The translations under genes and the position numbers were made by a program. 60,451 nt of DNA, taken from the IMG/VR virus record IMGVR_UViG_3300043449_000416, positions 1-60,451 of that record; one strand, given 5' to 3'. The stretch is from a virus. The notes under the pieces were generated by a model that saw only the letters and a list, made by a program, of their open reading frames with translations, ran no database searches and had not been told where the DNA came from. Shown here piece by piece: positions 1 to 60,451 of the stretch. Numbering within the stretch: position 1 is the first letter of the stretch; the number at the start of each line of letters is the position of its first letter.

Positions 1-126
1 TTACTTCTGGACGCACAGTGTTTGTATTTGCGGAACGCGCTATCGTATCCTGCAATAGGACATCATTTAGTGGAGAGCTGTTCGCCCGACGTACTCGTTC
101 TTGGAGATTAGGTAGCCCTTCGCGCC
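1..126. repeat. Terminal redundancy: nt 1-126 are identical to nt 60326-60451 (circular/permuted genome or assembly overlap)
   Basis: Direct comparison of the first and last lines of the window; an ORF reads in frame through the repeat. Confidence 0.85.
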
Positions 127-817
127 CCGATAGTTCGAAGCTAGGCGTAGTCATTTCAGTGAACGACGGAAGTTGGGCCGCGTCCACCCTCTCTCCAAAA
201 GACGGCAACCCTTCGCGCCCTGCGTAACGCTCGAACACAGGAGGTAAATTATATGGCTGCGTATCGGGCGGGAATACCGACGCGGTCGGTTCTCTATAGG
301 AAGGGTTTACGGCGGTGATACTATCGCCAACAGGCTCCATACCCATCATGCGACTACGCTCAGCACGCTGCTCCACATTGGCTATGACGCGAGCCGCCCC
401 TTCTTCCCCAAGGGATTCGAGGTACTCATCCACACTCATACCCAGCTTGTTGGCATAGGCAATCACAGCGGGGTCAGTCTTAACCTTGTCTCCCTTAGCC
501 ATCTTCTTGACCGGCCCGCCAGCGTACATAGCCTGCACGCCTGTGTTCTGCGCCATGTCAGTGCTCGGGGCTAGGGCTCGCGCCATATCAGCGATACCAC
601 CCTGCGGGACTCCTGCAGCTGCGATAGCCTCTTGGGCCACCGTACCTTGGTCGCCTTTGGCATTCTGCGCGGTGAAGTCGTCCTTCATGCGCTTGCGGCG
701 CATGATTTCCCCAAGAACAAGAAACTGCGGGGCGCTACCCGAAGGTGTCTGCATTTCCCGCACGAGCTGGTCTTGCGAGAAGTTTTTCAACTGATCTTGG
801 AGTTGGACGATGTTCAT
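1..817 (-). CDS. 5' part of a virion protein gene split by the window junction (ATG at 817-815, continues past nt 1 into 60379..59282; about 619 aa in total)
   Basis: Manual minus-strand translation from the ATG at 817 is open to nt 1 (MNIVQLQDQLKNF...GGPVKKMAKGDKVKT...) and runs in frame into ...LQDTIARSANTNTVRPEV, the N-terminus of ORF 59282..60379. TAATG overlap with the stop of the upstream 412-aa ORF. Confidence 0.55.
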   Translation of the reverse strand, partial: MNIVQLQDQLKNFSQDQLVREMQTPSGSAPQFLVLGEIMRRKRMKDDFTAQNAKGDQGTVAQEAIAAAGVPQGGIADMARALAPSTDMAQNTGVQAMYAGGPVKKMAKGDKVKTDPAVIAYANKLGMSVDEYLESLGEEGAARVIANVEQRAERSRMMGMEPVGDSITAVNPSYREPTASVFPPDTQPYNLPPVFERYAGREGLPSFGERVDAAQLPSFTEMTTPSFELSGREGLPNLQERVRRANSSPLNDVLLQDTIARSANTNTVRPEV

Positions 818-2055
818 TAGCCATACGCCTTATAGAGAGAAAGTCCTGTGAGTCCTGCGCCGAGAGCCTGTTGCGCCGGGTTGGTGTAGACCGATCCAGT
901 TGTGGTCGAGGTTCCAGCATTTGCTACAGGCAGGCCGCGCAGGATGTCTGAGTAGAAGCCCAGCTGATCTTCTGGATAACCTTGCTCACGTAGGTAGTCC
1001 TGATAGCCGATATCCAATCCAGCCTGCTGTTCGGCCATTTGGTCTTTACCAATGCTCTCGAGCAACTGGGCATTTTGGATTTCAGTCTCGCGCTCTTTTT
1101 CGCCGAGGCCTGCCAGCTGCTGCCCCGCCCGACCTGCTGCATCCAGTGCCGCCAGACCTTGGCTTGCGCCGAACTGACGTGATGCTTCCGTATCGGTCTG
1201 GACGCGTGCGAGCTCCGCTGCTTGTGCTGCCTGAATACGTGCGGCCTCTGAAACGCTGATGCCCTGCACTCGGGCCATTTCTTCGGCTCTGGCTCTCTGT
1301 ACCCGAGCCGCCTCGGCAGCTGTAGCGCCTTGGTACCGGCCAGCCTCGCCAGCCTGTGCTGTTTCTGTCGCCATCCGAGCCGCGCGGTCAGCCTCGAACA
1401 TTCTTTGGGCATCCCCGTATGCGGAAGACAGCCCCTGAGCTTGAAGTTCCCCTTGACGCCGCAACAAGTCGCGCTCGGCTAGACCCTCTTGAACACCTTG
1501 GCGCGATCCACCGTAAGCACCTGCGGCCACTGCGCGAGAACTGCGGCCTTGCCGCGCGATGTCATAATCCTCTTGTGCCTGATCTTTCTGGAATTTGACC
1601 ACGTTCTGCATGTACGGGTCCATGTACTGGGATATTGCGTCACCAGTGAACTGGCCAGCAGGGCCAAACTGAAATTCTTTGAACCCAGCCTCTGAGAAAC
1701 CAGAAAACGGCGAAGCCTCGGTAGCCTTGAAGCCACCGTACTGCGAAAAATCCCCTGTATTGTATTGGCCGAGCTGCCGAGCCAAGTCGATATTCCCGCG
1801 CGCTACACCTTGGGCTTCGCCCAGACCTGCGATTCCCGATCCAGCGATGTTACGAGTAAGATCACGGGCTGCTCCAATGTCGGCGTAGTCTGCCGAGTCT
1901 GCAAGCCGCTGGCCACCGTAGGCCTGATATGGCTGTAGAGACTGCTCTTCGACGCGGCCCATAAGCCGTTCGAAGTATGGCATGAACTCCTCGGGGATGT
2001 TCGTCTGCGTAACCGTCTGTTCGGTTGGAGTCGCGCTGCTTCCGCCGGTGCTCAT
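817..2055 (-). CDS. Hypothetical virion/internal protein (412 aa, Ala/Gln/Arg-rich with repeated ARVQ motifs)
   Basis: Long ORF in the late operon; coiled-coil-like repeats (ARVQRARAEEMARVQ...AELARVQ); ATG at 2053-2055. Confidence 0.5.
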   Translation of the reverse strand: MSTGGSSATPTEQTVTQTNIPEEFMPYFERLMGRVEEQSLQPYQAYGGQRLADSADYADIGAARDLTRNIAGSGIAGLGEAQGVARGNIDLARQLGQYNTGDFSQYGGFKATEASPFSGFSEAGFKEFQFGPAGQFTGDAISQYMDPYMQNVVKFQKDQAQEDYDIARQGRSSRAVAAGAYGGSRQGVQEGLAERDLLRRQGELQAQGLSSAYGDAQRMFEADRAARMATETAQAGEAGRYQGATAAEAARVQRARAEEMARVQGISVSEAARIQAAQAAELARVQTDTEASRQFGASQGLAALDAAGRAGQQLAGLGEKERETEIQNAQLLESIGKDQMAEQQAGLDIGYQDYLREQGYPEDQLGFYSDILRGLPVANAGTSTTTGSVYTNPAQQALGAGLTGLSLYKAYG

Positions 2056-2525
2056 GGTAGATTTTCCCTGTACTGTTCGAGGGTCTCATGGTGCGTAAAG
2101 AAGCCCCGGACTTCCATGCTAACCGACTGCATGTAGTCCCGCCCCTTACATATATAGATAACATATGCAATGATCTCTGCATACCAGTCGCGAAGGACGT
2201 AGGAGAACACTCGGTCGTTTGCCGAGCCCTTCTCCAGCTTGTTGGCATCGAGCCAAGCGTTGATCCCTGTCACGATGATTGGAATCAGCTGGTGCTTGTA
2301 CTTATCAAAGAACGGGTTGAGAGGCAGCTCGGTCAGAGCGACAAAAAGCGTGCGGGCAATGTCTGCGTCGGTGACGGGCTTGTCCTTGTCGATGAGGTCG
2401 TCGAAAACCTCGCAGATGTCGCCAAACTGACGGATGAACCAGATGGCGTTCATATCGCCGGTCCACTCTACGAGCTTAGCGTCGCGTAGCTTCCGCCACT
2501 CTTCGGTGTCAAACTCAGGAGTCAT
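2052..2525 (-). CDS. Hypothetical protein (157 aa)
   Basis: ORF with 4-nt start/stop overlaps to both neighbours in the late operon. Confidence 0.5.
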   Translation of the reverse strand: MTPEFDTEEWRKLRDAKLVEWTGDMNAIWFIRQFGDICEVFDDLIDKDKPVTDADIARTLFVALTELPLNPFFDKYKHQLIPIIVTGINAWLDANKLEKGSANDRVFSYVLRDWYAEIIAYVIYICKGRDYMQSVSMEVRGFFTHHETLEQYRENLP

Positions 2526-3598
2526 GCGGCCACCCGTTTACGCAGTTCAGCCGGTGCCTTTGGTCCGGCCCCGTTCACAGCGGATAAGAATCCACCCCCG
2601 AACTTCCTCTCAAGTGCATCAGTAGCATCTTTGCGAAGCACAAACTCGCCATCAGCTAGGAGCACATCTTGTTCCCCGTCAATCGTAGCAGGCACCTTGT
2701 CATCTACACCAGAACCGTCGCCGGGACCGCGGACCATGCCGTTTTCGCCGTTGGCAAAGCGCTCGCGGGTATCATCGAATTCGCCAGACTTCACGGAGTT
2801 TACCAGATCGCGCAGGGCAGACTTGCCGTACTTGGCCAAGAACTTACCGAGGGCAATTTCAGGCTGCGGATGCTGCCCCTTGATGGCAGCGATAGCCTCG
2901 ACGATTTCGGTCTTCTCGTTTGGCTTTTTGACGTCCCCGCCTTTGGCATAGGGGAGCGCGCCTGTATCTCGGTAGGCTAGAATGTCTTCGTATGAATACG
3001 GTCGTCCGATGCCATAATTAAACTCAGGATCGATGCCGGGACGATACCCCAGCGGAGGAGTTAGCTGGACGCGCGGAATAGGTTTCATCTCTATGTCGGC
3101 AGCGATGGGCTTGGCGGCGGTAGGTTTTATTGTTGGGGTTGGAGTAGCCAATGCACCTCCGATCTGTGACCCAATACCCTGCGCAGAGCTCATAAAGTTC
3201 ATACCGTTACGGATTCCACTGCCTAGTGCTCCACTGCCAAAGAACCCCGAATTAGCTGCAGGTTGCGGGGGCATAAGGGAGCTAATACCGCCCGCCGAGC
3301 TAAGCGGGGTGCCTGTCGTCATCGCATTTGCCCCGGTACCAATAGCGCTTTGCCCGGGCATCGGTTGCTGTAGTGCGCCACCCGCAGTGCTGCCCATAAG
3401 CCCGCCGAGAAGCTTGCCACCTAAGAAGGAGCCCAGTCCTGCCTTGAGTCCCGCACCGAGGTCTCGTTGCTCGATGGCTGTCCCAAGGCCTTGACCAACA
3501 GCCCCCGCAATCAGCGGAGTTAGTGAAGCAAGGCCCAGCGCGCTGCCAATGGCGGGGGCGAAGGCGGACCCGAGAAAGCCCAAAATCATAGGAAGCAT
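2522..3598 (-). CDS. Putative internal virion / ejection protein (Gly-rich, hydrophobic N-terminus)
   Basis: 358-aa ORF; N-terminal hydrophobic Gly/Ala-rich segment (MLPMILGFLGSAFAPAIGSALGLASL...), extended Gly-rich low-complexity region; sits in the structural arm. Confidence 0.45.
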   Translation of the reverse strand: MLPMILGFLGSAFAPAIGSALGLASLTPLIAGAVGQGLGTAIEQRDLGAGLKAGLGSFLGGKLLGGLMGSTAGGALQQPMPGQSAIGTGANAMTTGTPLSSAGGISSLMPPQPAANSGFFGSGALGSGIRNGMNFMSSAQGIGSQIGGALATPTPTIKPTAAKPIAADIEMKPIPRVQLTPPLGYRPGIDPEFNYGIGRPYSYEDILAYRDTGALPYAKGGDVKKPNEKTEIVEAIAAIKGQHPQPEIALGKFLAKYGKSALRDLVNSVKSGEFDDTRERFANGENGMVRGPGDGSGVDDKVPATIDGEQDVLLADGEFVLRKDATDALERKFGGGFLSAVNGAGPKAPAELRKRVAA

Positions 3599-3661
3599 GG
3601 CAGTTCCTCTAGCAAGTTTTACACAATTTAGCAGATGCCGCGCTATACGACAATCCGAAGC

Positions 3662-4762
3662 TCATAGCTGTTGCTGCGTTACGGTTACGATTATGGCAGG
3701 CCCTGCCGGATGGAAGGCGGTTGCCGCGAAGGCGTCAAGGCTAACGTTCGTGTCATCAGCCGCCCACATAACTCGGACATATTGGTTGGCCTCTAACGAC
3801 ACATCGTATGTCGCGGAGAACGGAAAATAGGTACCGGTCCCAGTGAGACTGATAGCCCGCGTGGTATCCGGCAGATTTGTGCCGTTCTTCTCCAGCCAGA
3901 TGTACACGCTCTTCGAGCTGGCATTAGTGGATGCGAGCTGAGCAGAGATATCGACGTGGTAGTACCCCGCCTGTGACGCCACAATCCTAGAGGCTGGAGT
4001 GCCGAGCGTAACCCCGTTCGAGATTTCGGTAGCCGTATAGGTCACCGCAGTGGCCGTATTTATAGCTGACAGAGTTTGGTCGGTGCTTGAGATGAATGTG
4101 CCGTAATCCAACCCAATCGGTATGGTCGGCCTAACCATAATTTCTCCGACGGTGGAGCTTACGGTTAGAACTGCAGCGACAGAGACCACCACATCCGGGG
4201 CCGTCGGACGGACCTTGGTAAACCGCCCAGCCGTCGTTGCGGAGGCGTATAGGATATCCCCTGCGACCCAAGTCTGGCTTACTGTGGAGCCCGTGGTATT
4301 TAGACCTCGGACTTTTCCGTAGACTGTGACCGCGCCGACGGCCTGATCGACCATCTCAAAGGTGGTGACGCCGACGAAGTACAGCTCCGGGATAGAGCCG
4401 TTGGCAATGTAGGGAGAGACATTGATCTCGCCGTTTACCCCGGCAAAGCCGACAACGGAGCCGTTCGGGATGGTAGACCCCGTATTGTTCCGGCACCGCA
4501 TGAAGGTCTCAAAGCCGATCTGCTGAGTGACGTCGTTCAGGTGCGTAAGGTTGAACGTGTCCTCGGCGGCGTTGTATGACAACTCCCCAGCATCGATTTT
4601 TTCACCAGACGGGTTTAACGTGACTGTCGTGAAGATCGCATCGCCCGGGTTATTGACCTGCTGCACAAATACCGAGAACGCACGGATGAGCTGGGCCATG
4701 TATTGACGGTTGTAGTTCTCCGGCGGCGTTGGAAAGAAGGGTGCTGGTGCATTACTCGGCAT
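3662..4762 (-). CDS. Putative tail fibre / receptor-binding protein
   Basis: 366-aa ORF rich in Thr/Ser/Gly/Asn/Val, typical of fibre proteins; follows a large tail protein gene. Confidence 0.45.
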   Translation of the reverse strand: MPSNAPAPFFPTPPENYNRQYMAQLIRAFSVFVQQVNNPGDAIFTTVTLNPSGEKIDAGELSYNAAEDTFNLTHLNDVTQQIGFETFMRCRNNTGSTIPNGSVVGFAGVNGEINVSPYIANGSIPELYFVGVTTFEMVDQAVGAVTVYGKVRGLNTTGSTVSQTWVAGDILYASATTAGRFTKVRPTAPDVVVSVAAVLTVSSTVGEIMVRPTIPIGLDYGTFISSTDQTLSAINTATAVTYTATEISNGVTLGTPASRIVASQAGYYHVDISAQLASTNASSKSVYIWLEKNGTNLPDTTRAISLTGTGTYFPFSATYDVSLEANQYVRVMWAADDTNVSLDAFAATAFHPAGPAIIVTVTQQQL

Positions 4763-6624
4763 TACTTCCTCCCGTCCGTTCTGAGATCAAGCCTCGGATC
4801 ACCAAGCCGCCAAGCCGTATTTATCTGACTGGAATCAATACGCAGGGATATTGACCGCCCGCGTAGCCGTGTAAAAATCTGGTTGGTGAACTGTTCCACC
4901 GGAAGGCTTGAGGTCTTGGTGACTGGGTCCGCATCCGTCGCAAAGTAGGCCCCCCCGGGGAAGTTCCGGGCCTTTAGAGTGATAGTTACCGTGGGCGCGT
5001 CGTTCGTTGAGTTTCGGAATGTGAGATCGGGGATGAGCCTAGTGGCGAACATAAAGTTGTCACCGTCCCCCATGTCTATCACACTCGACTCGACATAAGC
5101 AGTTATGGGGGCCGGAGGGTTCACGCTTCCATCATTCAGGCCGTTCTCTTGGTAGTACACATACCCATCCGGCGAGATAGCCAGCGGGTACTGTAGGACG
5201 TTACGATCCAACCAAGCCGTGCGAGAGAGCGTTCCGTAGTACCATACGCGCTGTTCATAGTTATAGACGACGTACTTATCGTTCTCGCTGCTGGCAGCAG
5301 ATGGATAGAACCACCACACCTCAGAAAATGAACTGCAATGACCTGCGTAAATCTTAAGCTGTTGCGAAACGTTCAGATCAGAGAAAACGTATTCCTTCAC
5401 GTCGCATGGAATCTGCACCGCGGCACCGTCATAGATATAGAACTCGTTGCTACCCATCCAGTAAACAGAGTCTCCAACGGCTACGGAAGCATTGGGCGCG
5501 GCAATAGATATAGAGGATGAGACTTCTTGAATTCCGAATGTGTAGGGGGGCCCGATATATTGCATTGCGTGAATGGACACATCGGTGAAGACGAGAATCT
5601 GTTGCTTGGTCTGCACAGCTGATATGATCTCAGACCCGGTACCAATACGCAGTTCACCCGCAGTTGTTGTCGGCAGGGTGCGCCATTCAGCAAGGTTCTC
5701 TTGGTCAGAGAAGCGAATCGTCAGTGGGTCCTGAACACCGGGAGTGCCCTCTGGGTCACAACCAAACGCAATAACGTGCCGATCACGCTCCGATATCATA
5801 ACTAGGCGGGCAACCGTCGGCACTGCCTGAGCGCCGGGGAGCGTCTGCAGTTCAACTCCGCGTGTTGAGAGGCCCGCGCTCTTGTCCCAGTAATAAATAC
5901 GTCCGTTCTGCAGACAGAAGATCAAGTCCTCTCCAAAACTATCCTGCGACCAGATAGGAAGCTGTGCGCTAGGTAGTGTTGTACGCGTCCCTGAACCCCA
6001 AGTCCCGCGAGACCAAGTGCCAGAGCCCCAACCACTGCCTGCGATAGCCGTATCTAGGGCGACGTTGATCTGGTAAGCACCAACGACAGACGCACCGCCG
6101 GTTCCGGTATCCGAGGAATTAGCCGTAGCCGTTGCGGTTATCTGGTATACACCCCCGCTTACGACGTTAGTAACCTGATACTCTCGGTTTAGTACAGAAG
6201 CCGTGATGTTACCGCCGAGGCTAACCGCGCCAGAGAAGGTCACAAAGTCTCCCGTGAGAGCGCCGTGCAGGGTGTCATTCACGTTGATGATATTGGAACC
6301 CGTGGTAGCGGAAAACGTTACGCCGCCGGGCGCTGTCGTGGCGCGAAGGGGGGTGATATCGTTTACCGATCCACCGCTCAGGATGTAGTACTTTAGGTTG
6401 GTGCCACACCCGGTGTACACAGAGCCGTCGAGCGCAGTCCATGTAAGCAGAGACCGCCCAGTGCCAAGCAGCGGATCACGCGTATAGCGGGTCCAGCCCC
6501 CGATAGTTTCAGGTTTACCTGCCCGAAAACGCACAAGGTTCCCATCCCACCATCCGCCCTCATTGGCATAGGCAGTGGTCTCACGGTTAATACCGGGCCG
6601 GAATACGAGTTTTGTGAGTGCCAT
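4762..6624 (-). CDS. Putative tail protein (about 620 aa; likely start at internal Met MALTKLVFRPG)
   Basis: ORF 4762..6720 in the track; the upstream extension overlaps the spanin candidates, so the internal ATG near 6624 is the more plausible start. Gly/Thr/Ser-rich beta-type composition. Confidence 0.45.
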   Translation of the reverse strand: MALTKLVFRPGINRETTAYANEGGWWDGNLVRFRAGKPETIGGWTRYTRDPLLGTGRSLLTWTALDGSVYTGCGTNLKYYILSGGSVNDITPLRATTAPGGVTFSATTGSNIINVNDTLHGALTGDFVTFSGAVSLGGNITASVLNREYQVTNVVSGGVYQITATATANSSDTGTGGASVVGAYQINVALDTAIAGSGWGSGTWSRGTWGSGTRTTLPSAQLPIWSQDSFGEDLIFCLQNGRIYYWDKSAGLSTRGVELQTLPGAQAVPTVARLVMISERDRHVIAFGCDPEGTPGVQDPLTIRFSDQENLAEWRTLPTTTAGELRIGTGSEIISAVQTKQQILVFTDVSIHAMQYIGPPYTFGIQEVSSSISIAAPNASVAVGDSVYWMGSNEFYIYDGAAVQIPCDVKEYVFSDLNVSQQLKIYAGHCSSFSEVWWFYPSAASSENDKYVVYNYEQRVWYYGTLSRTAWLDRNVLQYPLAISPDGYVYYQENGLNDGSVNPPAPITAYVESSVIDMGDGDNFMFATRLIPDLTFRNSTNDAPTVTITLKARNFPGGAYFATDADPVTKTSSLPVEQFTNQIFTRLRGRSISLRIDSSQINTAWRLGDPRLDLRTDGRK

Positions 6625-6691
6625 AGCAATCTCCTGTCCGTAAGATACTACACCACTCGAGAAGTTTAGCCAACATCTCGATCTGGCGAGT

Positions 6692-6919
6692 TTAGGCTCG
6701 CCTGCCGCAGCCCGCGTCAAGTAGTCGGATCAGGTACGCACCGGAAACAGTCGAAAGCGGCCCCCCGTCGTCAGCCAAAGCCCGTGCATGTTCGCTGCTC
6801 GCCGTTTCGGTACCTACGCAGACCGCATCAGTGTTTGCCGCGCTCACGCAACCAATCGTGGGCAGCGTCAGCATCAGACATGCGACCCACTTCGTCCATC
6901 CGTCTCCGTGTTTCAGCAT
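6692..6919 (-). CDS. Candidate o-spanin (lipoprotein-like), overlapping the i-spanin candidate in another frame
   Basis: Alternative-frame ORF with n-region / hydrophobic stretch / Cys (MLKHGDGWTKWVACLMLTLPTIGC...) immediately downstream of the endolysin. The lipobox is imperfect. Confidence 0.25.
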   Translation of the reverse strand: MLKHGDGWTKWVACLMLTLPTIGCVSAANTDAVCVGTETASSEHARALADDGGPLSTVSGAYLIRLLDAGCGRRA

Positions 6920-7064
6920 AATCTTCAAACTCCTCTTGTTTGGCGTCAGCCTGAGCCGCTTTTCTGCCACCAAGCCAGCTAGCTGCTAGCGCGGCAAGGA
7001 CAAGACCAATACCTATAGCCCAGAGTTTTAGACGCACAAAGATCAACGGTCGCCCTCTGCCCAC
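6828..7064 (-). CDS. Candidate i-spanin / small membrane protein with charged C-terminal tail
   Basis: 78 aa; N-terminal TM helix (LWAIGIGLVLAALAASWL) followed by a charged helical tail; adjacent to the endolysin. Confidence 0.35.
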   Translation of the reverse strand: MGRGRPLIFVRLKLWAIGIGLVLAALAASWLGGRKAAQADAKQEEFEDYAETRRRMDEVGRMSDADAAHDWLRERGKH

Positions 7065-7708: not shown

Positions 7709-7938
7709 TTGCTCCCCACCTTCGCAATGAGTGACTTTATGTCATCGCGGATTTCGCCCAGCATCCTGTTGGTCTCCTCGCGAGACTGCCGGGTCATTTC
7801 CAAATCCTCTTTCCGCTGATACCAAAGCCGTTTGATCTCTCTACCATTTTCAACGCTGCGCGCTTCGAGGCGAATAAGCCAAACAATGGTCGCCACGAAT
7901 GCAGCGGCAACCGGCCAGAAGGTGCGTATAAATTCCAT
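7705..7938 (-). CDS. Putative holin / small membrane protein
   Basis: 77 aa; N-terminal TM segment (FWPVAAAFVATIVWLI) then a charged C-terminal region; immediately upstream of the endolysin. Confidence 0.4.
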   Translation of the reverse strand: MEFIRTFWPVAAAFVATIVWLIRLEARSVENGREIKRLWYQRKEDLEMTRQSREETNRMLGEIRDDIKSLIAKVGSK

Positions 7939-7960
7939 CTCTATGTTACCTTCCTCAGAC

Positions 7961-9654: not shown

Positions 9655-9663
9655 AGGTCATCC

Positions 9664-10482: not shown

Positions 10483-10490
10483 GGCTTACC

Positions 10491-12291: not shown

Positions 12292-12314
12292 ATCAGCCCT
12301 CCACCTCGGCTAGG

Positions 12315-12758: not shown

Positions 12759-12767
12759 GATAGCCTC

Positions 12768-13702: not shown

Positions 13703-13705
13703 CTA

Positions 13706-14059: not shown

Positions 14060-14069
14060 CTCGATCTCC

Positions 14070-15067: not shown

Positions 15068-15070
15068 GAT

Positions 15071-15451: not shown

Positions 15452-15453
15452 TT

Positions 15454-52807: not shown

Positions 52808-52867
52808 TATTGTGTGCCTGACAGAACAGCTCGCCGCCCGCTTGCCTACTGTCGGTTCTCCCAACTG

Positions 52868-52895
52868 GCCCCGGCTTCGTGCCGGGGCTTTTTTC
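52868..52895. terminator. Intrinsic terminator between the convergent arms
   Basis: GGCCCCGGC-TTCG-TGCCGGGGC stem-loop followed by TTTTTTC on the plus strand; located between the plus-strand stop (52807) and the minus-strand stop (52896). Confidence 0.6.
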
Positions 52896-55800
52896 TTAGA
52901 AGAGCTGGAACCCTTGGTTGTACATCCCCTCCAGATCGATCAGGGCTTCCCGTACTATCGGGTTGATCGACACACCACTCGACATTTCCTTAGACGTGCG
53001 TTGGTGGCTCTTAAGCGAGTCTTTGAGGAACTCCCCATCAATAACTGCTTCGGGAAACCGGTCTTTGATCTCCGCATTGAACGCACGGATATCAGCCATA
53101 GCTTCTTGTGCGCCCTCGATGTCGCCCTGACGTAGTGCGATGTAGTAGAGTTTTGACAGTTCCGAGCGCTTCTTGGAGACCTCGTTGCTGATCCTAACCT
53201 TGAGTTGGTTAATGTCCTGCTGCAGCGTGGCCTTCGTTGGCGTAAAGCCAAGCATCTGTCCTAGCAAATCACTGGAACCAAGATCGCCAGTGATGACGTC
53301 CTTACGCCGCGTCTCGATGGAAGCGCCATCGGCCAGATAACGCCCCGCTTTGATGAAGTTACGGACTGCCGCTGGTACCATGTTCTCAATGCCACGCACC
53401 ATGTCGCCTTCCCCGCCAGTCATGGCCGTATAGAACTCCGAGATACCACGACCGAACTGCGTTGCAGTAGACCATGCAGGGCCTCCGATAGCCGCCACAA
53501 GGGTTTCTTCTGCCGACGCATCGGTGTTGTAGCGGTTTTCACGGAGCAAGAGCCCGGTAAGCCCGATACGGGACGAGATGTCGAACCCAGATATGTCCGA
53601 CAGGAAGCCTTTATAAATTCCTTCACCGAGATAGCGACGTGTCAGCATGTCTGCATCTTCCTCGTCATCGCCGAGGAACGCGTTTGCTACCGTGGACACA
53701 AGCCCATAGAGGGGCACACCTGCGATACCGGCAAAGGCAAAAGACGATAGCTGCAGACCAACAAGCTGCTTAAAAGCTACCCGCCGATCTTCTGGTGTGA
53801 AGTCAGGATCATTACTACCTAGCGTCAACTGCTTTATAAGCTTCATCTGCATGTAAAACAGCGAAAGCCCGAAGTTTTTGTACATGAGAGCTACGCGCCC
53901 GATACCCTTCTGGGCCCAGCGCGGTGCGGTAGCGAGAGTAGAACCACCACCCGTTTCAGTTGCCTGATATACAGCGCGCTCGGCAGCGCGGGTGCGTCGT
54001 TGGTCTTCGGTGAGCCCACGCTCAGCTTCGGTTGGCTTGTTCCGCAGACGGGCGAGTTCGAGATTATAGGCCGCGACGAGAGTAACCTGACGGTTGGCGC
54101 GTTCAACTTGGTGAAACAAGGCACCGGATATGGCAGAGAAACGATCACCGAAGCTCCGCGCGCGTCCAACATCCTCGGCACCGATGCTATCGTAATAAAT
54201 CGAGCGGTTCAGCTGCCCGTTCTTAGACGCAACATCCACAAGAGGGGCGAGTTCCTGCAGCATCGGGCGAAGTTCCGGTGCGATGTCGTCGCGCAGGACG
54301 TACTCGTTATTACTATTCAAGACGAAGTAGTTGTCTATGGACGGCATAGCCCGAACCTTGGTTGTCTTCTGCCCTTCAAACTGCGCAGGGAGTTCGATCT
54401 CACGGCTAAGGCCACTGTTCAGGAATAGCTTATAGGCACTGCCGATTGCAGCGGCAGATGATCGGCTGCCATAACGCCCAGCTAAGTACGGGTAGAGCAC
54501 AACGGGGACTGACGACAAGTTCACCAGCGCCGAGGACACGTTCAAGCCAATAGTAAACGTAAAGGCCCCACGGTTAACTGTCTGCACCATGCGCTCGAGC
54601 ATATCGGCAGGGGGGTTAGTGGCAAAGTTGGCACGGGCAACGAGCTCCTCGACTACCGCTACCTTGTTCTGGTCATTGGTATTTCTTGCCTGATCCTGAA
54701 TGGCATCCGACACGGCTCTGATCTTGTTGCTGTAGGCGTAGCGGACACCCTGTCGTCCAAGGCTGTAACCCTTAACGCGAAGTGCCTCCAACGAGTCCTC
54801 CATGTAGCCACGCGTATTCTTACGCCGCTGCAAAGACTTAGCAAACGATGTTTCCGGTAGCGCATCTACAAAGAGTTTGGTGATCTCCTGCTGAATGCTC
54901 GAGGCTGTAGCTGCATCCACCCCGGTGTTGGCGAGATTGGACCGGATAATAGACAGCGTGTCACGCACAAATAGAGAGTCCGGTGTACGCCCCTGCCGCA
55001 CCACGTCGAGCGTGGAGTAGTAGTTAAAGATTGGTTTCCCATCTGGGCCCTTGGTAACTTCCGACATAGCCTCGAGTTCTTTGGCGGCGCGGTCACGCGC
55101 ACGGGGGCTTTCGTAAGCCTCCTTTACAGGCTCAGTGGTGTTGGTCTCGGGGTCAAAGGCGGAATATTCTAACCAGTAGTCGCCCTTACGAGCCAGCGGG
55201 AAGTACGGCTCGATGCGGTTCATGTCGAAGAACTTTGTGTAGATGCTCTGCTTTACCTCAGCGGCTAGCGTGGGGTTGGATGAGAGAATAAAGTCAATTT
55301 TGCCCGAGAGAGCCTCGCGCAGGCGCTCGTACTGCTTGCGGTACAGCTGGCGCATGTTGTTATAGAGATCATGCCCATCCCTACCAATAGCGGCCCAGTC
55401 CTTCTGCAGTGCGTCATACATACGCATTTTGTCGGAGTCGGCACCGTACTTCTTTAGGGCCTTCTCGCGGGTCAGAGACGGATCGACTTGGTTGACTGTG
55501 GAGCGCGTGACGACGCGGTCGAACAGCGGCTTGAGGTTGGGGTTGTTCTTCACCCACTTCTGGGCGATCTGCAGAACGCCATCTACCTCTTGGTCAGACT
55601 TGACAGCAGCTGCATCCATCTGCTGGACGCCGTCCTGTAGATCATAGGCACCGTCAATCTTGTAGTGTGCGGCCACGTCGGCCAAAGGCTGCATCCCCAT
55701 AAACCCGAGAACGGTGCGCTTCGCGCCCCAAGATGCGCCAGACAAAACACTAGAGGCGTCGTCGCCGAACTGTTGAGCAAACTCCTTGGTACGGCCCGGG

Positions 55801-58800
55801 AAGGAGCCGTCGATCTGCGCTACGCGATTAAGGATCGTTGCGCCCTCTTCCGGCGTGGAGATGTCGGTCACGCTGATTGGGAAATCGAGTATCTGCATGA
55901 CCATCTGGTCGGTAATGTCGAGAGCGCTACGCAGCTGCCTTGGCTGCAAACCGATAAGTCTACGGACAAGGTTAATGATCTCGTTTGTGAACCGCTGTAC
56001 CGCAGATATAGGTTTACCATCAGGGTACAGTTGGGACAGTTCGCGTTGAAACTGCGGGTCAGAGAAAGCATCAGCGACAAACTCGAACAGATTTTTCTGT
56101 CCATTTAGTTGACCCAGTTTCGGTGCCACATCAGCAAATATTTGCTCCATGCGTTTGCGCATAGGGGAGGCTTCGTTGAGCAGCTCTCGTGCCGTAGCAG
56201 CGTGCGTCATCTCGTGCAGCAGTGTCGCGACGTCCATACCATAGACAGAATCCAACAAAAGCTCGCTCGTCTGGCGGCGATTAGTTAGACGATACTGTCC
56301 GCTTATTTCAGCCCCGTTGCGGTCGTCGCGTAGATCATCCACGATTCGCACCGAGGTGCCCGTCGCGTAGGGAGCCAGCGCACGGACAATACGCTTGATA
56401 CGGTCATTAGGCGCGTACATCTGCAGGGCGCGAAGCGCTAGCTCGAGATTACCACGGCGTAGCTGATTGACCACTGCCGGGTGCAGGGGGGAGCCAAGGT
56501 CCAGAACGTCTTGTGGGCGGTTAAACCGTAGCCCAAGGATTTGATCAGTAACGAAGTCGATCTGGTCTTCTGCCGTCATCTTCCGCATGCCCGCGGCACG
56601 TTTCTGCGGGGGCACCTTAGTCTCTTGGACTGCGCCCAATAGGGCATCGAGTCCCTTTCCACCAAGAGATACGAGACGCTGCCCCTCTGCTTTTTGTGCG
56701 GCCTTGGTCTTAGCTTGAGCAGTCAGTTCCTGCTCGAGCGCGGCTCTTTCCTCGGTGTTGGCCGCGCGTCCACCGATAGCGGTAGAACTAGGCAAAGATG
56801 ATACAGCCCGCATTGGCACCTTGGCCTCTTGGGCTTTGCGGTACTTTCGTTGCAGGTCACGTACTTTGACCTGCGCCTGCGGGGACATGTTAGCCTCTAC
56901 CCACGCGAGAGCTTGCTTAGCGCGCTCTTGGGTCATACCCGAGAAGAACTCGCGCTCCGCAGGGCTGATTGTCTCGTCACCTGCAGGCAACGCGCCGGTT
57001 TCAGTTTCGAGCGCTTTCTGATTTTTGAACCGCTGGTTCTTTAGCGTGGCGTCGGCAACGATGAACTCGAGAGCATCGATGGGGCGTTTGAACTGCGAGA
57101 AGTACATCTGCGCGTTCTCGGCAGGGGCCATACCCTTCTTGCCCTTCTTGATAGCACCGGGCTGGAGCAGCCCGAGCACTCTACGCTTATCTTCCGACGT
57201 CGTCGGATCATCCAGAACAAGTGCGTCGGGGGTCGAATATTCGTCGATGAGCGAAGCCAGTTCCGGTTTATCTGCCATGCGTGCGGTCCACGCAGCCTCG
57301 AGTTCGCTCTGCGCAGCCGAGTTGGATGCAACCTCACGGACGTCGCGCATAGGTGCCAGCTGACGCTGAGCATCACGGACCTGTAGTTCAGTCGGAGAAC
57401 CCGTAAACGCGGGGGCAGTCAGTGCAGGGCGCTCTGTTCCCGCTGCTGTATCAGCAGCCACAGGCACCGACATATCTCCTCCCAGTCCTCCGCCCGTAGG
57501 TGTTTCAGTCCCGGTGGAGCCTGTAGCGATGCTATCGACCCCTCCGCTTCCTTCCACGCTTGGTCCACCACTCGGAACGCCAACTCCCACTTCTTCTGGT
57601 TTAACCGCTGCAGCCTCGGGGACATTTGGGGCCTCCTGCTTGGGGGCAATAGCCGGTGCTTCCGGTGCGGGCTGTCCAGTGATAAGCCGCGCGACGAGCG
57701 CTTTGTTCGCGGCGGTAGCCTTATCATTTTGCGCCCAGCGGTTGAGCGTCCTAACAACAGCGCTGTCTGTTAGGGGTTTCCCTACCATCTTACGCAACGG
57801 CGCTGATTTAGCCGTGCCAACGCCGAGCTGCGTCACAAGATCATCGGTCAAAACTGGCACAGTTGATTCGGCGGATACGATACCCGGCACTGTCTCCGCT
57901 GGGAGGACTTCGGATTTTGCAACGGCCTCATTCGTGACAGGAACTGCCGCTTTTGGCACCGCAGTCGCCGTAGCTTTCGGCACGGTGGTGGGTTTTTTCT
58001 TGAGTGTTGGTTCGACTGGAACTTCTGCCGGGACAGCGGCGGCTTCGAGGCCAAGAGAGAGCTGTTCTTCTTCGGGTGTAGGCTGCAGTTCCAACTTAGC
58101 TGGCAGCACTGAGCCTCCTACCTCGGGGGCAGTGGGGAGGAACAACTCACCTTGCTCCTGTCCGGTCACAAACCCCGGACGCGTAGACGGCGTTAGGGGT
58201 AACTCCATCTGAGTTTGTAGATCGGCGGGATTAATAGTAGCCGTAGCAGCTCCCGGCGCTTCTCTAAGGCGAGGGCCACCGACTGCGCCGCCGATACCAC
58301 CAGCAGCGACACCGAGGACACCGCCAGCCACACCGGCGTCGATATATTCTTGGATAGCATCGGGGCTGTCAACTGGCAGACCCGCCTGATAGCGCTCTAA
58401 TATCTGCTGGCCAACTTCATTTAGGGATTCCGTTGTGCCGCCAACCGCTGCGCCAGACAGGGCCCGGGTAAACAGTTTGGCACCGGGGCGAACAAAGACA
58501 CCTGCACCTGCCAACGCATTAGTTACAGCGGTAATCCCAGCCTGCCCAACTGTGGAGCCGAGGGCGTCGGTTAGATCAACAGCGTCTCTACGGCCCGCTG
58601 CAACTTCTTCCTCTTGGCGCTGCACGTTAGCACCGAACAGCATCGGGGCCTCAGTAAGACCAGAGCCGATACCGAAACCAGCCAAAGCCCCCGCTGGGCC
58701 TCCGAAGCTACCAACAGCAGCGCCAACAGCGCCACCCGCCAGACTCGTACCGAGCTGAGGCAACTGCTCGCCTGCCAATTCACCAGCGTATGTAAGCCCC

Positions 58801-59213
58801 GCGCCAATAGTTGGGAAGAAACCTTCGGCAGCAACAACATCTTGACGCGTAGTCGGTGCAGGCTGCAGAAGGCTTAGCTCAAACTGGCGCTGCGCAGCTG
58901 CGTCTTCCATACCCCGGCCATATTCGGCGATGCTGGGCAGTCCAACCTGCTGACCGATAGTCTCTATAGTAGTGCCAAAGAGGGACTTTGCGCTGGCCTT
59001 GCCGCGCTCAAGACCGCGACCAAGAGCTGTACCATCGTCCGGTTGCGCTAAAGGTTTGCCGAGCGTCGCTTCGTATTCCGTAGCAAACGCACGTTCTTGC
59101 TCGTCCAAATATGCACGGATGCGCGCCTGCTCTGTCTCAGAGGGAGTATCACCCTTGATATTAACGCTGTAGGTCTTCCCGCTTAGACGGCCCGGAACCT
59201 GAATAATACCCAT
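52896..59213 (-). CDS. Giant virion-associated protein (2105 aa) with internal HExxH motif
   Basis: Single uninterrupted ORF; Gly/Ala-rich N-terminal third; HEMTH (HExxH) at ...LLDSVYGMDVATLLHEMTHAAT...; last gene of the late operon. Confidence 0.6.
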   Translation of the reverse strand: MGIIQVPGRLSGKTYSVNIKGDTPSETEQARIRAYLDEQERAFATEYEATLGKPLAQPDDGTALGRGLERGKASAKSLFGTTIETIGQQVGLPSIAEYGRGMEDAAAQRQFELSLLQPAPTTRQDVVAAEGFFPTIGAGLTYAGELAGEQLPQLGTSLAGGAVGAAVGSFGGPAGALAGFGIGSGLTEAPMLFGANVQRQEEEVAAGRRDAVDLTDALGSTVGQAGITAVTNALAGAGVFVRPGAKLFTRALSGAAVGGTTESLNEVGQQILERYQAGLPVDSPDAIQEYIDAGVAGGVLGVAAGGIGGAVGGPRLREAPGAATATINPADLQTQMELPLTPSTRPGFVTGQEQGELFLPTAPEVGGSVLPAKLELQPTPEEEQLSLGLEAAAVPAEVPVEPTLKKKPTTVPKATATAVPKAAVPVTNEAVAKSEVLPAETVPGIVSAESTVPVLTDDLVTQLGVGTAKSAPLRKMVGKPLTDSAVVRTLNRWAQNDKATAANKALVARLITGQPAPEAPAIAPKQEAPNVPEAAAVKPEEVGVGVPSGGPSVEGSGGVDSIATGSTGTETPTGGGLGGDMSVPVAADTAAGTERPALTAPAFTGSPTELQVRDAQRQLAPMRDVREVASNSAAQSELEAAWTARMADKPELASLIDEYSTPDALVLDDPTTSEDKRRVLGLLQPGAIKKGKKGMAPAENAQMYFSQFKRPIDALEFIVADATLKNQRFKNQKALETETGALPAGDETISPAEREFFSGMTQERAKQALAWVEANMSPQAQVKVRDLQRKYRKAQEAKVPMRAVSSLPSSTAIGGRAANTEERAALEQELTAQAKTKAAQKAEGQRLVSLGGKGLDALLGAVQETKVPPQKRAAGMRKMTAEDQIDFVTDQILGLRFNRPQDVLDLGSPLHPAVVNQLRRGNLELALRALQMYAPNDRIKRIVRALAPYATGTSVRIVDDLRDDRNGAEISGQYRLTNRRQTSELLLDSVYGMDVATLLHEMTHAATARELLNEASPMRKRMEQIFADVAPKLGQLNGQKNLFEFVADAFSDPQFQRELSQLYPDGKPISAVQRFTNEIINLVRRLIGLQPRQLRSALDITDQMVMQILDFPISVTDISTPEEGATILNRVAQIDGSFPGRTKEFAQQFGDDASSVLSGASWGAKRTVLGFMGMQPLADVAAHYKIDGAYDLQDGVQQMDAAAVKSDQEVDGVLQIAQKWVKNNPNLKPLFDRVVTRSTVNQVDPSLTREKALKKYGADSDKMRMYDALQKDWAAIGRDGHDLYNNMRQLYRKQYERLREALSGKIDFILSSNPTLAAEVKQSIYTKFFDMNRIEPYFPLARKGDYWLEYSAFDPETNTTEPVKEAYESPRARDRAAKELEAMSEVTKGPDGKPIFNYYSTLDVVRQGRTPDSLFVRDTLSIIRSNLANTGVDAATASSIQQEITKLFVDALPETSFAKSLQRRKNTRGYMEDSLEALRVKGYSLGRQGVRYAYSNKIRAVSDAIQDQARNTNDQNKVAVVEELVARANFATNPPADMLERMVQTVNRGAFTFTIGLNVSSALVNLSSVPVVLYPYLAGRYGSRSSAAAIGSAYKLFLNSGLSREIELPAQFEGQKTTKVRAMPSIDNYFVLNSNNEYVLRDDIAPELRPMLQELAPLVDVASKNGQLNRSIYYDSIGAEDVGRARSFGDRFSAISGALFHQVERANRQVTLVAAYNLELARLRNKPTEAERGLTEDQRRTRAAERAVYQATETGGGSTLATAPRWAQKGIGRVALMYKNFGLSLFYMQMKLIKQLTLGSNDPDFTPEDRRVAFKQLVGLQLSSFAFAGIAGVPLYGLVSTVANAFLGDDEEDADMLTRRYLGEGIYKGFLSDISGFDISSRIGLTGLLLRENRYNTDASAEETLVAAIGGPAWSTATQFGRGISEFYTAMTGGEGDMVRGIENMVPAAVRNFIKAGRYLADGASIETRRKDVITGDLGSSDLLGQMLGFTPTKATLQQDINQLKVRISNEVSKKRSELSKLYYIALRQGDIEGAQEAMADIRAFNAEIKDRFPEAVIDGEFLKDSLKSHQRTSKEMSSGVSINPIVREALIDLEGMYNQGFQLF

Positions 59214-59281: not shown

Positions 59282-60379
59282 TTATTCGTCAGCGAAGTTT
59301 GGGACTTCGTCGGCTCCGCCATCCGTAGCTGTAGACCCGTAGAGGATAGTATCCCGAAGCGCCAGTTTGTTATTTAGCTCTTGCTGTACTGCGGCAAGCT
59401 GCATTTCCGCTTCCGGTGTAGTCGGTGGCATGACTGCTGAGTTAGCAATCAACCCATCTAGGCGCTCGATATCTGAATTTATCTGCGTAAGGAGACGCCC
59501 TGTCCCTGCAGATAGACCGAAACCACCGCTATTACTACCTCCGCCACTACCGCCACCAGATGCTGCTTTAGCCCGCGCTGCACGAGACTGCGCAATGGCA
59601 CCTGTGAGCTCGAGTTTTTCTTTGTCGTACTGGTCCCGTGCACTGCGCGCAGCTTCGATACCTTTGAGTCCGGCTTCGCCAAGAGCGCCCCCAAGCGTTG
59701 GCTGTCTGGACGACATAAGGTTCAAGCCTACCTGCGCCAGCGCCAGCCACTTGTCCTGCTCGGCTGCCTTCTCGCGCTTTGACAGTGTATCCATGAGCGC
59801 CTGTTCGTAGGACGATACGCCACCGGCCCCACCGCTAGTTCCACCGCTGGTTCCACCTTGCGACGCGGCAGCGGTTTGTGCTCCACCTTGCGGCGCGGCA
59901 GCTGGCTGTGCTCCAAGCAACGCAGCGCTTTGTGCTGCGAGTAACCCCTGTGGCGCAGCTGCTCCGGGCACTGCAGTAGTCGTAGGCAGCGGTTGAAGCT
60001 TTGGCACTTCGGGTGTGGTACGTCTCGCCTGTTCTGCGGCAATCGCAGCTTGGTCTTCGACAGTACGCCCTCCCATAGCTCCCAAAATAGCGTCAACGTA
60101 AGACCCAGAAGAGCTTAGAGGATCGTATGTAGGCATAACAGGGGCCCCAGAACGACTGACGGCTCTTGGTCCTTGTTGAGATTCCATTGCTGTAGGCAAC
60201 CCTGTCTGCGGTGCTGCGCGTCCCATTTGAGCGGAATACGCCAGTTCTTCACGGTTCTGTCTGGACTGATCCATACCCGGAAGAGCTGCCAGAAGTTCGC
60301 TGATGGACGGTTCCGCGCCAGAAATTACTTCTGGACGCACAGTGTTTGTATTTGCGGAACGCGCTATCGTATCCTGCAA
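59282..60379 (-). CDS. 3' part of the junction-spanning virion protein gene (continuation of 1..817)
   Basis: Track ORF (365 aa) starts on a non-ATG codon inside the terminal repeat; the frame is open upstream and continuous with the ATG at 817; Gly/Ser/Ala-rich low-complexity stretches. Confidence 0.55.
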   Translation of the reverse strand: MQDTIARSANTNTVRPEVISGAEPSISELLAALPGMDQSRQNREELAYSAQMGRAAPQTGLPTAMESQQGPRAVSRSGAPVMPTYDPLSSSGSYVDAILGAMGGRTVEDQAAIAAEQARRTTPEVPKLQPLPTTTAVPGAAAPQGLLAAQSAALLGAQPAAAPQGGAQTAAASQGGTSGGTSGGAGGVSSYEQALMDTLSKREKAAEQDKWLALAQVGLNLMSSRQPTLGGALGEAGLKGIEAARSARDQYDKEKLELTGAIAQSRAARAKAASGGGSGGGSNSGGFGLSAGTGRLLTQINSDIERLDGLIANSAVMPPTTPEAEMQLAAVQQELNNKLALRDTILYGSTATDGGADEVPNFADE

Positions 60380-60451
60380 TAGGACATCATTTAGTGGAGA
60401 GCTGTTCGCCCGACGTACTCGTTCTTGGAGATTAGGTAGCCCTTCGCGCCC
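60326..60451. repeat. Terminal redundancy (copy of nt 1-126)
   Basis: Identical to the first 126 nt of the window. Confidence 0.85.

What the first reader, a model, noticed from the sequence alone, without database searches (positions are those of the whole stretch)
1..817. Window is a circular permutation that cuts through a gene; 126-bp terminal redundancy
The last 126 nt repeat the first 126 nt. Translating the minus strand from the ATG at 817 gives an open frame to nt 1 that continues in frame into ORF 59282..60379, so a single gene of about 619 codons spans the junction. The redundancy is therefore more likely an assembly overlap of a circular or concatemeric genome than a biological direct terminal repeat. 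The ORF track misses the 5' half of this gene.
Basis: seen in the sequence. Interest (0 to 1): 0.5.

Follow-up and report, generated by a model that had tools for sequence, protein, structure and literature searches.

The report
Assembler overlap splitting a phage gene
The identical 127-base ends of this 60-kb phage contig are a leftover of how the assembler wrote out a circular sequence, and the arbitrary cut splits one real 619-codon virion gene in two; this is a routine, well-documented artefact that only needs trimming and rotating.

Summary
The terminal redundancy is exactly 127 nt (1-127 = 60325-60451), not 126, so the unit genome is 60,324 bp. After circularising, a minus-strand ORF runs from the ATG at 817 through nt 1 and 60324 to a stop at 59282-59284. 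It is exactly 619 codons, and nt 1 is the first base of codon 273.

- 127 is the usual largest k of SPAdes-type assemblers, which leave a k-long repeat when they break a circular path at a random place (PMC8116208, PMC6232296).
- An independent assembly (Logan SRR35180140, L006) is 100% identical over 19,451 bp straight across the junction. It holds one copy of the 127-mer and the same 619-aa gene.
- Homologues (over 955, mostly 540-680 aa) are single genes deep inside contigs, with the same neighbours.
- A relative assembled twice has two different breakpoints, one of which cuts another gene.

The split gene lies in the late operon, between a DNA-ejection-protein homologue and a 2105-aa polyvalent protein. 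It is probably an ejected internal virion protein, but that is inferred from gene order only. The true packaging ends cannot be determined without reads. This is ordinary and of low interest.

The parts
1..127 (.). Left copy of the 127-nt terminal overlap. It is genuine genome sequence and encodes codons 231-273 of the junction gene on the minus strand.
   Evidence: Exact prefix = suffix of 127 nt; repeat family D3. There is a single copy in the independent contig L006, flanked by window 128-187 on one side and 60265-60324 on the other.
60325..60451 (.). Right copy of the overlap. This is the redundant duplicate written by the assembler and should be trimmed, giving a unit genome of 60,324 bp.
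   Evidence: The length equals k = 127 (literature).
1..817 (-). 5' part of the junction gene: ATG at 817-815, codons 1-272, plus the first base of codon 273 at nt 1.
   Evidence: The N-terminus MNIVQLQDQLKNFSQDQL... is invariant in homologues.
59282..60324 (-). 3' part of the junction gene: the last two bases of codon 273 through codon 619, plus the stop codon at 59282-59284.
   Evidence: The protein is identical to the 619-aa gene called on L006 at 9451-11310.
59282..60379 (-). Truncated ORF call (365 aa, TTG start) that the linear window yields for the 3' part. The TTG is an internal codon, not the true start.
   Evidence: It is in frame with the full gene: 60451-60379 = 72 nt = 24 codons.
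817..2055 (-). Upstream gene (412 aa), a homologue of PHROG 4287 'DNA ejection protein'. Its TAA stop overlaps the junction gene's ATG (TAATG), which suggests translational coupling.
   Evidence: The identical protein is on L006, directly followed by the 619-aa gene.
52896..59213 (-). Downstream gene (2105 aa): a giant polyvalent protein with an LPD39 domain and a C-terminal region resembling DarB. It is the last gene of the late arm.
   Evidence: Equivalent genes of 2162-2269 aa follow the junction-gene homologue in L001, L004, L005 and L006.
52867..52889 (+). GC-rich hairpin followed by a T-run, located between the convergent late and replication arms. This is where the late transcription unit that contains the junction gene ends.
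   Evidence: There are no promoter-like or terminator-like sites near the junction itself.

Best explanation
The window is a complete, circularly closed assembly of a roughly 60.3-kb tailed-phage genome, from a freshwater podovirus lineage distantly related to the HTVC023P-type pelagiphages.

A de Bruijn graph assembler running with a largest k of 127 found a cycle, opened it at an arbitrary node and wrote it out linearly. As a result the first and last k = 127 bases are the same sequence written twice. The opening point fell inside codon 273 of a real 619-codon gene, so in the linear record the gene's 5' half is at the left end (817 to 1, minus strand) and its 3' half is at the right end (60324 to 59282).

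The repeat is therefore a technical overlap. It is not a packaged direct terminal repeat and says nothing about the physical ends of the virion DNA. The closure arises because the reads came from a template without fixed ends at this spot: circularly permuted headful-packaged DNA, replicative concatemers or circles, or a genome whose real ends lie elsewhere and were collapsed during assembly.

Shown here: the repeat, its length, the reading frame, continuity in an independent assembly, and conservation and synteny of the gene.

Inferred: the assembler and its k setting. The gene's role is also inferred: probably an ejected internal virion protein, about 0.55, from gene order and a helical-plus-disordered architecture. 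So is the packaging mode: headful about 0.5, fixed ends elsewhere about 0.4, true circular episome about 0.1.
For: (1) The ends overlap exactly by 127 nt, and this is the only long repeat in the window. 127 is the top default k of SPAdes; authors close SPAdes contigs 'by removal of 127 bp overlapping ends' (PMC6232296). [quoted passage not shown]

(2) The independent contig L006 (Logan, SRR35180140, 25,666 bp linear) matches the circularised window at 19,451 of 19,451 bases with no gaps, from window 10267 through 1 and 60324 to 51141. It has one copy of the 127-mer, no tandem copy, the expected flanks, and 10,140 and 9,184 bases on either side. It encodes the identical 619-aa protein between the 412-aa and 2105-aa genes.

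(3) The gene is real. It has more than 955 homologues, mostly 540-680 aa, several of them collinear over 97-100% of the query. The N-terminal (residues 1-110) and C-terminal (residues 440-527) blocks are conserved.

(4) Synteny in relatives (L001, L004, L005) is: ~620 aa structural protein, ~350-370 aa, ~157 aa, 346-413 aa, the homologue, a giant LPD39 protein of 2162-2269 aa, then a convergent DUF927 primase. In all three the homologue is far from the contig ends.

(5) The relative carrying P0013 was assembled once as a 65,855-bp scaffold with its giant gene intact (2230 aa), and once as a 66,001-bp contig named k141_... whose end cuts that giant gene. Breakpoints in this group therefore depend on the assembly.

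(6) The junction lies in the middle of the late operon. AT skew is continuous across it and flips only at about 28 kb and about 53 kb. There are no promoter-like or terminator-like sites near it.

(7) The gene content is that of a whole phage: TerL, portal, major head protein, tail and ejection genes, lysin, DNA polymerase, helicase, primase and resolvase. The size matches relatives of 57.6-66 kb.
Against: No reads are available, so coverage and read-start pile-ups at nt 1 and nt 127 could not be examined.

Continuity across the junction in L006 does not formally exclude a DTR. Concatemer junctions of DTR phages also carry a single copy of the repeat, so reads from replicating DNA would look the same.

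The assembler and its k setting are inferred from the number 127, not read from any metadata.

L006 may come from the same sequencing library as the window. It is independent as an assembly (k = 31 pipeline) but not necessarily as a sample.

The only solved terminase with detectable sequence similarity is T7 gp19, a DTR packager, although the match is weak (E about 1e-3). Short exact DTRs somewhere in this genome therefore remain possible.
Confidence: 0.95

Rival explanations
1. The 127 nt are a genuine packaged direct terminal repeat. On this reading the virion DNA is linear with fixed ends at window nt 1 and nt 60451, and the 619-codon gene is split in the particle and becomes whole only after circularisation or concatemer formation in the cell.
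For: The repeat is exact and terminal. Short exact DTRs of 100-500 bp are known in podoviruses such as T7 (my own knowledge). The only solved terminase with sequence similarity is T7 gp19, weakly (E 8.7e-4 and 2e-3). A single copy of the repeat in L006 is also what a concatemer junction would show.
Against: The length coincides exactly with a standard assembler k. The ends fall inside codon 273 of a conserved gene in the middle of the late operon, not in a non-coding region. No sequence signal, skew change or regulatory site marks the position. A relative shows different breakpoints in different assemblies, one of which also cuts a gene. The region around the junction is the variable middle of the protein family, so a conserved terminase cutting site there is implausible.
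Confidence: 0.02
2. The circular closure is false. On this reading a repeat of at least 127 nt that occurs twice in a larger or different genome made the assembler join two unrelated ends, so the contig is incomplete or chimeric and the 619-codon ORF is an artificial fusion.
For: De Bruijn graph assemblers can close false cycles on repeats longer than k (general knowledge). The window does contain internal tandem repeats (for example 10238-10404 and 31269-31610).
Against: L006 carries the same join with 9-10 kb of 100% identical sequence on both sides and only one copy of the 127-mer. The fused ORF is collinear with full-length homologues of 573-634 aa at 97-100% coverage. The flanking gene order is the conserved one. 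The gene content is that of one complete phage, and the size matches relatives.
Confidence: 0.01
3. The overlap is technical, but the phage has fixed physical ends elsewhere in the circle: a short DTR or cohesive ends in a non-coding region, for example the 876-bp repeat-rich gap at 28334-29210 or near the small-terminase-position gene at 26685-27263. Assembly collapsed those ends.
For: There is weak similarity between the TerL and T7 gp19. The genome has a large AT-richer non-coding region with direct and inverted repeats between the two arms. Several TerL relatives are deposited with the terminase gene within about 1-3 kb of base 1.
Against: Beyond its own lineage, the TerL's relatives are mostly Mycobacterium cluster-B-type, Microbacterium and T1-like phages. 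I recall many of these as circularly permuted headful packagers; that is my own knowledge and was not tested. The late-gene order resembles P22, a headful packager. No termini have been determined for any relative in the papers I could read.
Confidence: 0.4

Closest known systems
k-mer-length terminal overlaps on circular contigs from de Bruijn graph assemblers (the 'technical DTR' described in the CheckV paper, PMC8116208; 127-bp overlaps from SPAdes, PMC6232296)
   Same: The two ends are exactly identical. The length equals a standard largest k (127). The breakpoint is arbitrary and falls inside a gene. The sequence is continuous in another assembly. The contig has the gene content and size of a complete genome.
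   Different: Nothing differs in what could be tested. The assembler and its parameters are inferred, not documented, and read coverage was not available.
Short exact direct terminal repeats of T7-like podoviruses (T7 about 160 bp; my own knowledge)
   Same: A direct repeat of about a hundred bases at both ends of a linear phage sequence, and a TerL with faint similarity to T7 gp19.
   Different: T7-type repeats lie in non-coding DNA at defined concatemer junctions. Here the repeat is codons 231-273 of a conserved late gene, its length equals the assembler's k, and relatives are broken at other places.
Circularly permuted, terminally redundant genomes of headful packagers such as P22 (my own knowledge)
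   Same: Such genomes assemble as circles with no unique ends. The late-gene order here resembles P22: small-terminase position, TerL, portal, head protein, a gp10-like 'stabilization protein', then ejection proteins.
   Different: Real headful redundancy is hundreds to thousands of bases and varies between particles. It is not an exact 127-nt repeat in the assembled sequence. Headful packaging is not demonstrated for this phage.
Ejection (internal virion) proteins of podoviruses: P22 gp7/gp20/gp16 and T7 gp14/gp15/gp16 (my own knowledge)
   Same: The junction gene sits in the same place in the late operon, directly after a homologue of PHROG 4287 'DNA ejection protein' and before a giant protein presumed to be injected. 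Its size (619 aa) is similar to P22 gp16 (609 aa, from memory). The predicted architecture is long helices plus disordered low-complexity linkers.
   Different: No sequence or fold similarity to any characterised ejection protein was detected. The only outside link is a 46-residue N-terminal match to the gene in the same position in phage MinM2 (E 3e-5, probability 73%).

Membership tests
Assembler k-mer overlap on a circular contig | The two contig ends are exactly identical, in direct orientation | tested here: met
   127 of 127 identical, and the only long repeat in the window.
Assembler k-mer overlap on a circular contig | The overlap length equals a k value used by common assemblers | tested here: met
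   The length is exactly 127. 127-bp overlaps from SPAdes default k values are reported in PMC6232296. DTR lengths peak at assembler k values in PMC8116208. The k actually used for this window is unknown.
Assembler k-mer overlap on a circular contig | The breakpoint is arbitrary with respect to genome features and differs between assemblies | tested here: met
   The cut falls inside codon 273 of a conserved gene. L006 is broken elsewhere, at window ~10267 inside a 66-nt tandem repeat. A relative was assembled with two different breakpoints.
Assembler k-mer overlap on a circular contig | Sequence is continuous across the junction, with one copy of the overlap, in independent data | tested here: met
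   L006 matches 19,451 of 19,451 bases across the junction, with a single copy and the correct flanks.
Assembler k-mer overlap on a circular contig | Even read coverage over the overlap and no read-start pile-ups at its edges | not testable with these tools
   No reads are available.
Biological short direct terminal repeat (T7-type) | The repeat lies at the physical ends of packaged DNA (read-start pile-ups, doubled coverage) | not testable with these tools
   No reads are available.
Biological short direct terminal repeat (T7-type) | The repeat lies in non-coding DNA at a defined terminase processing site | tested here: not met
   The repeat is codons 231-273 of a 619-codon gene, in the variable middle of the protein family.
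Biological short direct terminal repeat (T7-type) | The large terminase belongs to a clade of DTR packagers | tested here: inconclusive
   The only match in the PDB is T7 gp19, at E about 1e-3. Closer relatives are uncharacterised or of mixed packaging types.
Headful (pac) packaging with circular permutation | The large terminase clusters with known headful packagers | tested here: inconclusive
   Relatives include T1-like, Mycobacterium cluster-B-type and Microbacterium phages. Their packaging modes are recalled from memory, and no tree was built.
Headful (pac) packaging with circular permutation | Read-level evidence of permuted ends or a pac-initiated series | not testable with these tools
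   No reads are available.
Podovirus ejection / internal virion proteins (for the 619-aa gene) | Encoded in the late operon next to other ejection proteins, downstream of tail-completion genes | tested here: met
   The order is: phrog_3287 ('stabilization protein' homologue), 366 aa, 358 aa, 157 aa, phrog_4287 'DNA ejection protein', the 619-aa gene, then the giant LPD39 protein. The same order is found in L001, L004, L005 and L006, and analogous modules occur in DSL-LC04 and MinM2.
Podovirus ejection / internal virion proteins (for the 619-aa gene) | Sequence or fold homology to a characterised ejection protein | tested here: not met
   No PHROG or Pfam family. No tblastn hit in GenBank phages. 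PDB profile hits are low-complexity noise. Foldseek against the PDB gave 0 hits at E <= 0.001, using a model with pTM 0.30.
Podovirus ejection / internal virion proteins (for the 619-aa gene) | Present in virions and released into the host at infection | not testable with these tools
   This needs virion proteomics or ejection assays.

The most novel reading that the evidence does not exclude
The 127 nt are a true packaged terminal repeat that happens to equal the assembler's k. On this reading the virion DNA has fixed ends inside the coding sequence of an ejection-module gene. The gene would be physically split in the particle and could be expressed only after the incoming genome recombines through the repeat or forms concatemers, which would be a built-in timer for a late gene.
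Probability: 0.015. Interest if true: 0.6.

Novelty: already known. Interest (0 to 1): 0.07.

Why it matters
The value is practical, for annotation.

- If the overlap is taken at face value it would be recorded as a 127-bp DTR, which implies a T7-like packaging mode for which there is no evidence.
- The genome length would be overstated by 127 bp (60,451 instead of 60,324).
- A conserved 619-aa late gene would be lost. It would be replaced by a 365-aa fragment with a false TTG start and an uncalled 272-codon 5' half.

Trimming 60325-60451 and rotating the sequence fixes all three. A sensible new start is a non-coding point such as 27264-27432, between the two divergent arms, or just after the terminator at 52889. 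The sequence also shows that the contig is very probably a complete genome of a little-studied freshwater relative of the HTVC023P-type phages.

Tried and rejected
- **Source contig or other assemblies, by exact search:** two 40-mers at the overlap edges against IMG/VR and a 41-mer from inside the repeat against JGI metagenome contigs all gave 0 hits. These collections therefore gave no alternative breakpoints for this exact phage.
- **Megablast of window 1-20000 against GenBank phages:** no match.
- **Exact-protein look-ups:** the major head protein, portal, DNA polymerase and 955-aa primase were not on record, probably because of different start calls.
- **Function of the 619-aa protein:** PHROGs and Pfam found nothing, and tblastn against phages found nothing. 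A PDB profile search returned only low-complexity noise. An AlphaFold model of the closest full-length homologue, P0002, was helices plus disorder (pLDDT 66, pTM 0.30), with no Foldseek hit in the PDB. hhalign against the DSL-LC04 gene in the same position was negative.
- **Packaging class from TerL:** only a weak T7 gp19 match in the PDB and a mixed set of relatives. I judged a formal terminase tree too weak at this divergence to be worth building.
- **Literature on termini of relatives:** nothing beyond 'circular contig'.
- **Literature searches for the k = 127 statement:** two of these returned irrelevant papers before the useful ones.

Full report
**1. Observation**

The window's first and last bases are identical over exactly 127 nt. 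The longest prefix that equals a suffix is 127, and at 126 or 128 the ends are out of register. So 1-127 = 60325-60451 and the non-redundant genome is 60,324 bp. The repeat finder lists this pair as the only long repeat in the window (family D3).

After deleting one copy and joining the ends, the minus strand is open from an ATG at 817, through nt 1 and 60324, to a stop at 59282-59284.

In the linear window the ORF lister gives only a truncated 3' piece (59282-60379, TTG start, 365 aa) and omits the 5' piece, because it runs off the end. The 3' part reads in frame from nt 60451. The ATG at 817 overlaps the TAA of the upstream gene (TAATG), and every homologue begins MNIVQLQ..., so the start is secure.

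**2. What the genome is**

PHROG and Pfam scans give a complete tailed-phage gene set in two arms.

The late arm is on the minus strand. It starts at about 27.3 kb and contains, in order:
- a 192-aa ORF in the small-terminase position;
- TerL (24202-26688) and portal (21428-23917);
- the major head protein (17879-18784);
- tail genes and the endolysin (7043-7708);
- a 652-aa virion protein (4762-6720) whose relatives are annotated 'stabilization protein';
- ORFs of 366, 358 and 157 aa;
- a 412-aa homologue of PHROG 4287 'DNA ejection protein' (817-2055);
- the junction gene;
- a 2105-aa protein with an LPD39 domain and a C-terminal region resembling DarB (52896-59213).

The replication arm is on the plus strand from about 27.4 to 52.8 kb. 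It holds an ATPase, a protein matching the PHROG 'HNH endonuclease' family, a family-A DNA polymerase, an exonuclease, a helicase and a DUF927 primase. The arms converge on a strong hairpin terminator at 52867-52889.

AT skew changes sign only at about 28 kb and about 53 kb and is continuous across the contig ends. No promoter-like or terminator-like site lies near the junction. The contig ends therefore fall in the middle of the late operon.

There is no near-identical phage in GenBank. By TerL the nearest named relatives are Pelagibacter phages HTVC027P and HTVC023P, 023Pt_psg01, the lake metagenome-assembled DSL-LC04, and the cyanophage records MinM2 and Pag-Yong1, at 39-45% identity and with genome sizes of 57.6-65 kb.

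**3. Tests of the junction**

(a) *Independent assembly.* The 412-aa protein is found exactly on a 25,666-bp linear Logan contig from run SRR35180140 (L006). There it is followed by a 619-aa gene and a 2105-aa gene. BLAST of L006 against the circularised window gives 19,451 of 19,451 identities with no gaps, running from window 10267 through 1 and 60324 to 51141. L006 holds one copy of the 127-mer and no tandem copy. It is flanked by window 128-187 on one side and 60265-60324 on the other, with 10,140 and 9,184 bases on either side. Its 619-aa product is identical to mine. That contig ends at window ~10267, inside a 66-nt tandem repeat, which is an understandable break for a k = 31 assembly.

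(b) *Conservation.* The 619-aa protein has more than 955 homologues, mostly 540-680 aa. Several are collinear over 97-100% of the query. The N-terminal ~110 residues and a C-terminal block (residues 440-527) are highly conserved, and the middle is variable.

(c) *Synteny.* In L001, L004 and L005 the homologue is one gene, far from the contig ends, with the same neighbours on both sides.

(d) *Breakpoints in a relative.* The phage carrying P0013 was assembled as a 65,855-bp scaffold with the giant gene intact (2230 aa), and also as a 66,001-bp contig named k141_... whose end cuts the giant gene.

**4. Why 127 matters**

SPAdes contigs assembled with default k values are closed 'by removal of 127 bp overlapping ends' (PMC6232296).

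The CheckV paper reports that DTR lengths in metagenomic contigs cluster at assembler k values. [quoted passage not shown] The window fits this description point by point. That the assembler used k = 127 is my inference from the number. One preprint on an unrelated prophage draws '127-bp terminal repeats' on its genome map. I could not check it, but it suggests how easily this number ends up in annotations.

**5. Explanation and rivals**

Best explanation (0.95): a technical k-mer overlap on a circularly closed assembly, with an arbitrary cut inside a real gene.

A genuine 127-bp DTR at these coordinates (about 0.02) is not formally excluded, for two reasons. Concatemer junctions of DTR phages also carry one repeat copy, and the TerL has a faint similarity to T7 gp19 (E about 1e-3). 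However, it would require three things: a coincidence with the assembler's k, ends inside the variable middle of a conserved late gene, and no sequence signal at the site.

A false circularisation on an internal repeat (about 0.01) is contradicted by L006 and by the collinear homologues.

What remains open is the real packaging mode:
- The P22-like gene order, and wider TerL relatives that I recall as circularly permuted, lean towards headful packaging (about 0.5).
- Fixed ends elsewhere are about 0.4, for example in the repeat-rich 876-bp non-coding gap at 28334-29210.
- The papers on relatives report only 'circular contigs'.

**6. The split gene**

The gene has no Pfam or PHROG family, no tblastn hit in GenBank phages and no meaningful PDB sequence hit.

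The family profile matches the first 46 residues of MinM2 MM2_24, the gene in the same position in that phage (E 3e-5, probability 73%). It does not match the DSL-LC04 gene in the same position.

An AlphaFold model of the closest full-length homologue (P0002) shows helical N- and C-terminal parts joined by long disordered, Gly/Ala/Pro-rich linkers (pLDDT 66, pTM 0.30). There was no Foldseek match in the PDB.

From its place between an ejection-protein homologue and a giant polyvalent protein, I infer an ejected internal virion protein (about 0.55). It fails the homology criterion for membership in any characterised ejection-protein family.

**7. Verdict**

The phenomenon is well known and technical, and the interest is low. 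The useful action is to trim 60325-60451, rotate the sequence to a non-coding start, and re-call genes.

Noticed in passing
window 24202-26688 (minus strand): The large terminase (828 aa) appears to carry an intein in its nuclease domain. Terminase homology stops at about residue 483. The intein starts at DDH|CFVAGTQV (Cys1), has Hint-type Pfam hits at residues 485-560 and 758-791, and ends VLVHN|CDTT (His-Asn followed by a +1 Cys). The middle of the insert is Ser/Thr/Arg-rich with no recognisable homing endonuclease.
   Followed up: partly
window 28442-52749 (16 sites) and 57769: The hairpin motif GTTAGG-N6-CCTAAC occurs 17 times against 0.08 expected, and 16 of the sites lie in the replication arm. 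Many sit 10-25 nt upstream of a Shine-Dalgarno sequence and ATG, for example 29893, 30671, 32266, 34373 and 45617. One copy is conserved at the equivalent convergent intergenic spot in the relatives L001, L004, L005 and L006. It is probably a lineage-specific regulatory or RNA-processing element.
   Followed up: partly
window 28334-29210: This is the largest non-coding gap (876 bp, lower GC) and lies next to the point where the two arms diverge. It contains direct repeats (28410 and 28628, 31 nt; 28841 and 28901, 27 nt), an inverted repeat (28815-28854 and 29064-29103) and two copies of the hairpin motif. It is a candidate origin or early control region, or the site of real genome ends.
   Followed up: no
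window 52896-59213 (minus strand): A 2105-aa polyvalent protein is the last gene of the late arm. It has an LPD39 domain at residues 1164-1307 and a C-terminal ~400 residues matching the PHROG 'DarB-like antirestriction' family. Relatives have versions of 2162-2803 aa, one of them annotated RelA/SpoT. It is probably injected with the DNA.
   Followed up: partly
window 10238-10404, within ORF 9664-10482 (minus strand): There are 66-nt tandem repeats (2-3 copies, 85-97% identical) inside a 272-aa late gene with no family match. The independent Logan contig L006 ends exactly here, at window ~10267.
   Followed up: no
window 31269-31610 and 36161-36261: There are two in-frame short-period repeats. 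One is a 6/12/18-nt Gly-rich array in ORF 31020-31595 (no family match). The other is a (GGTCAG)n Gly-Gln run in ORF 35686-36972, which matches the PHROG 'HNH endonuclease' family phrog_1314.
   Followed up: no
the junction protein family (alignments A1 and A2; window 817-1 and 60324-59282): The family has nearly invariant N-terminal (residues 1-110) and C-terminal (residues 440-527) blocks, but a hypervariable middle full of indels and a variable tail. Many database hits share 80-90% identity over only 18-28% of the query, which suggests modular exchange or rapid diversification of the central part.
   Followed up: partly
GenBank OQ594354.1, OL906435.1 and PP438419.1 (L008 is from the first): Three records under different names and hosts (Synechococcus phage MinM2, Planktothrix phage Pag-Yong1, Planktothrix phage Pra-JY27) all have a length of 65,014 bp and give identical TerL hit statistics, but at different coordinates and strands (59189, 43213, and 60008 on the minus strand). 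They look like the same genome deposited in three permutations.
   Followed up: no
window 17202-17771 (minus strand): An endonuclease VII-like gene (phrog_1035) sits among the head and tail genes. This would fit resolution of branched replicative DNA before packaging.
   Followed up: no
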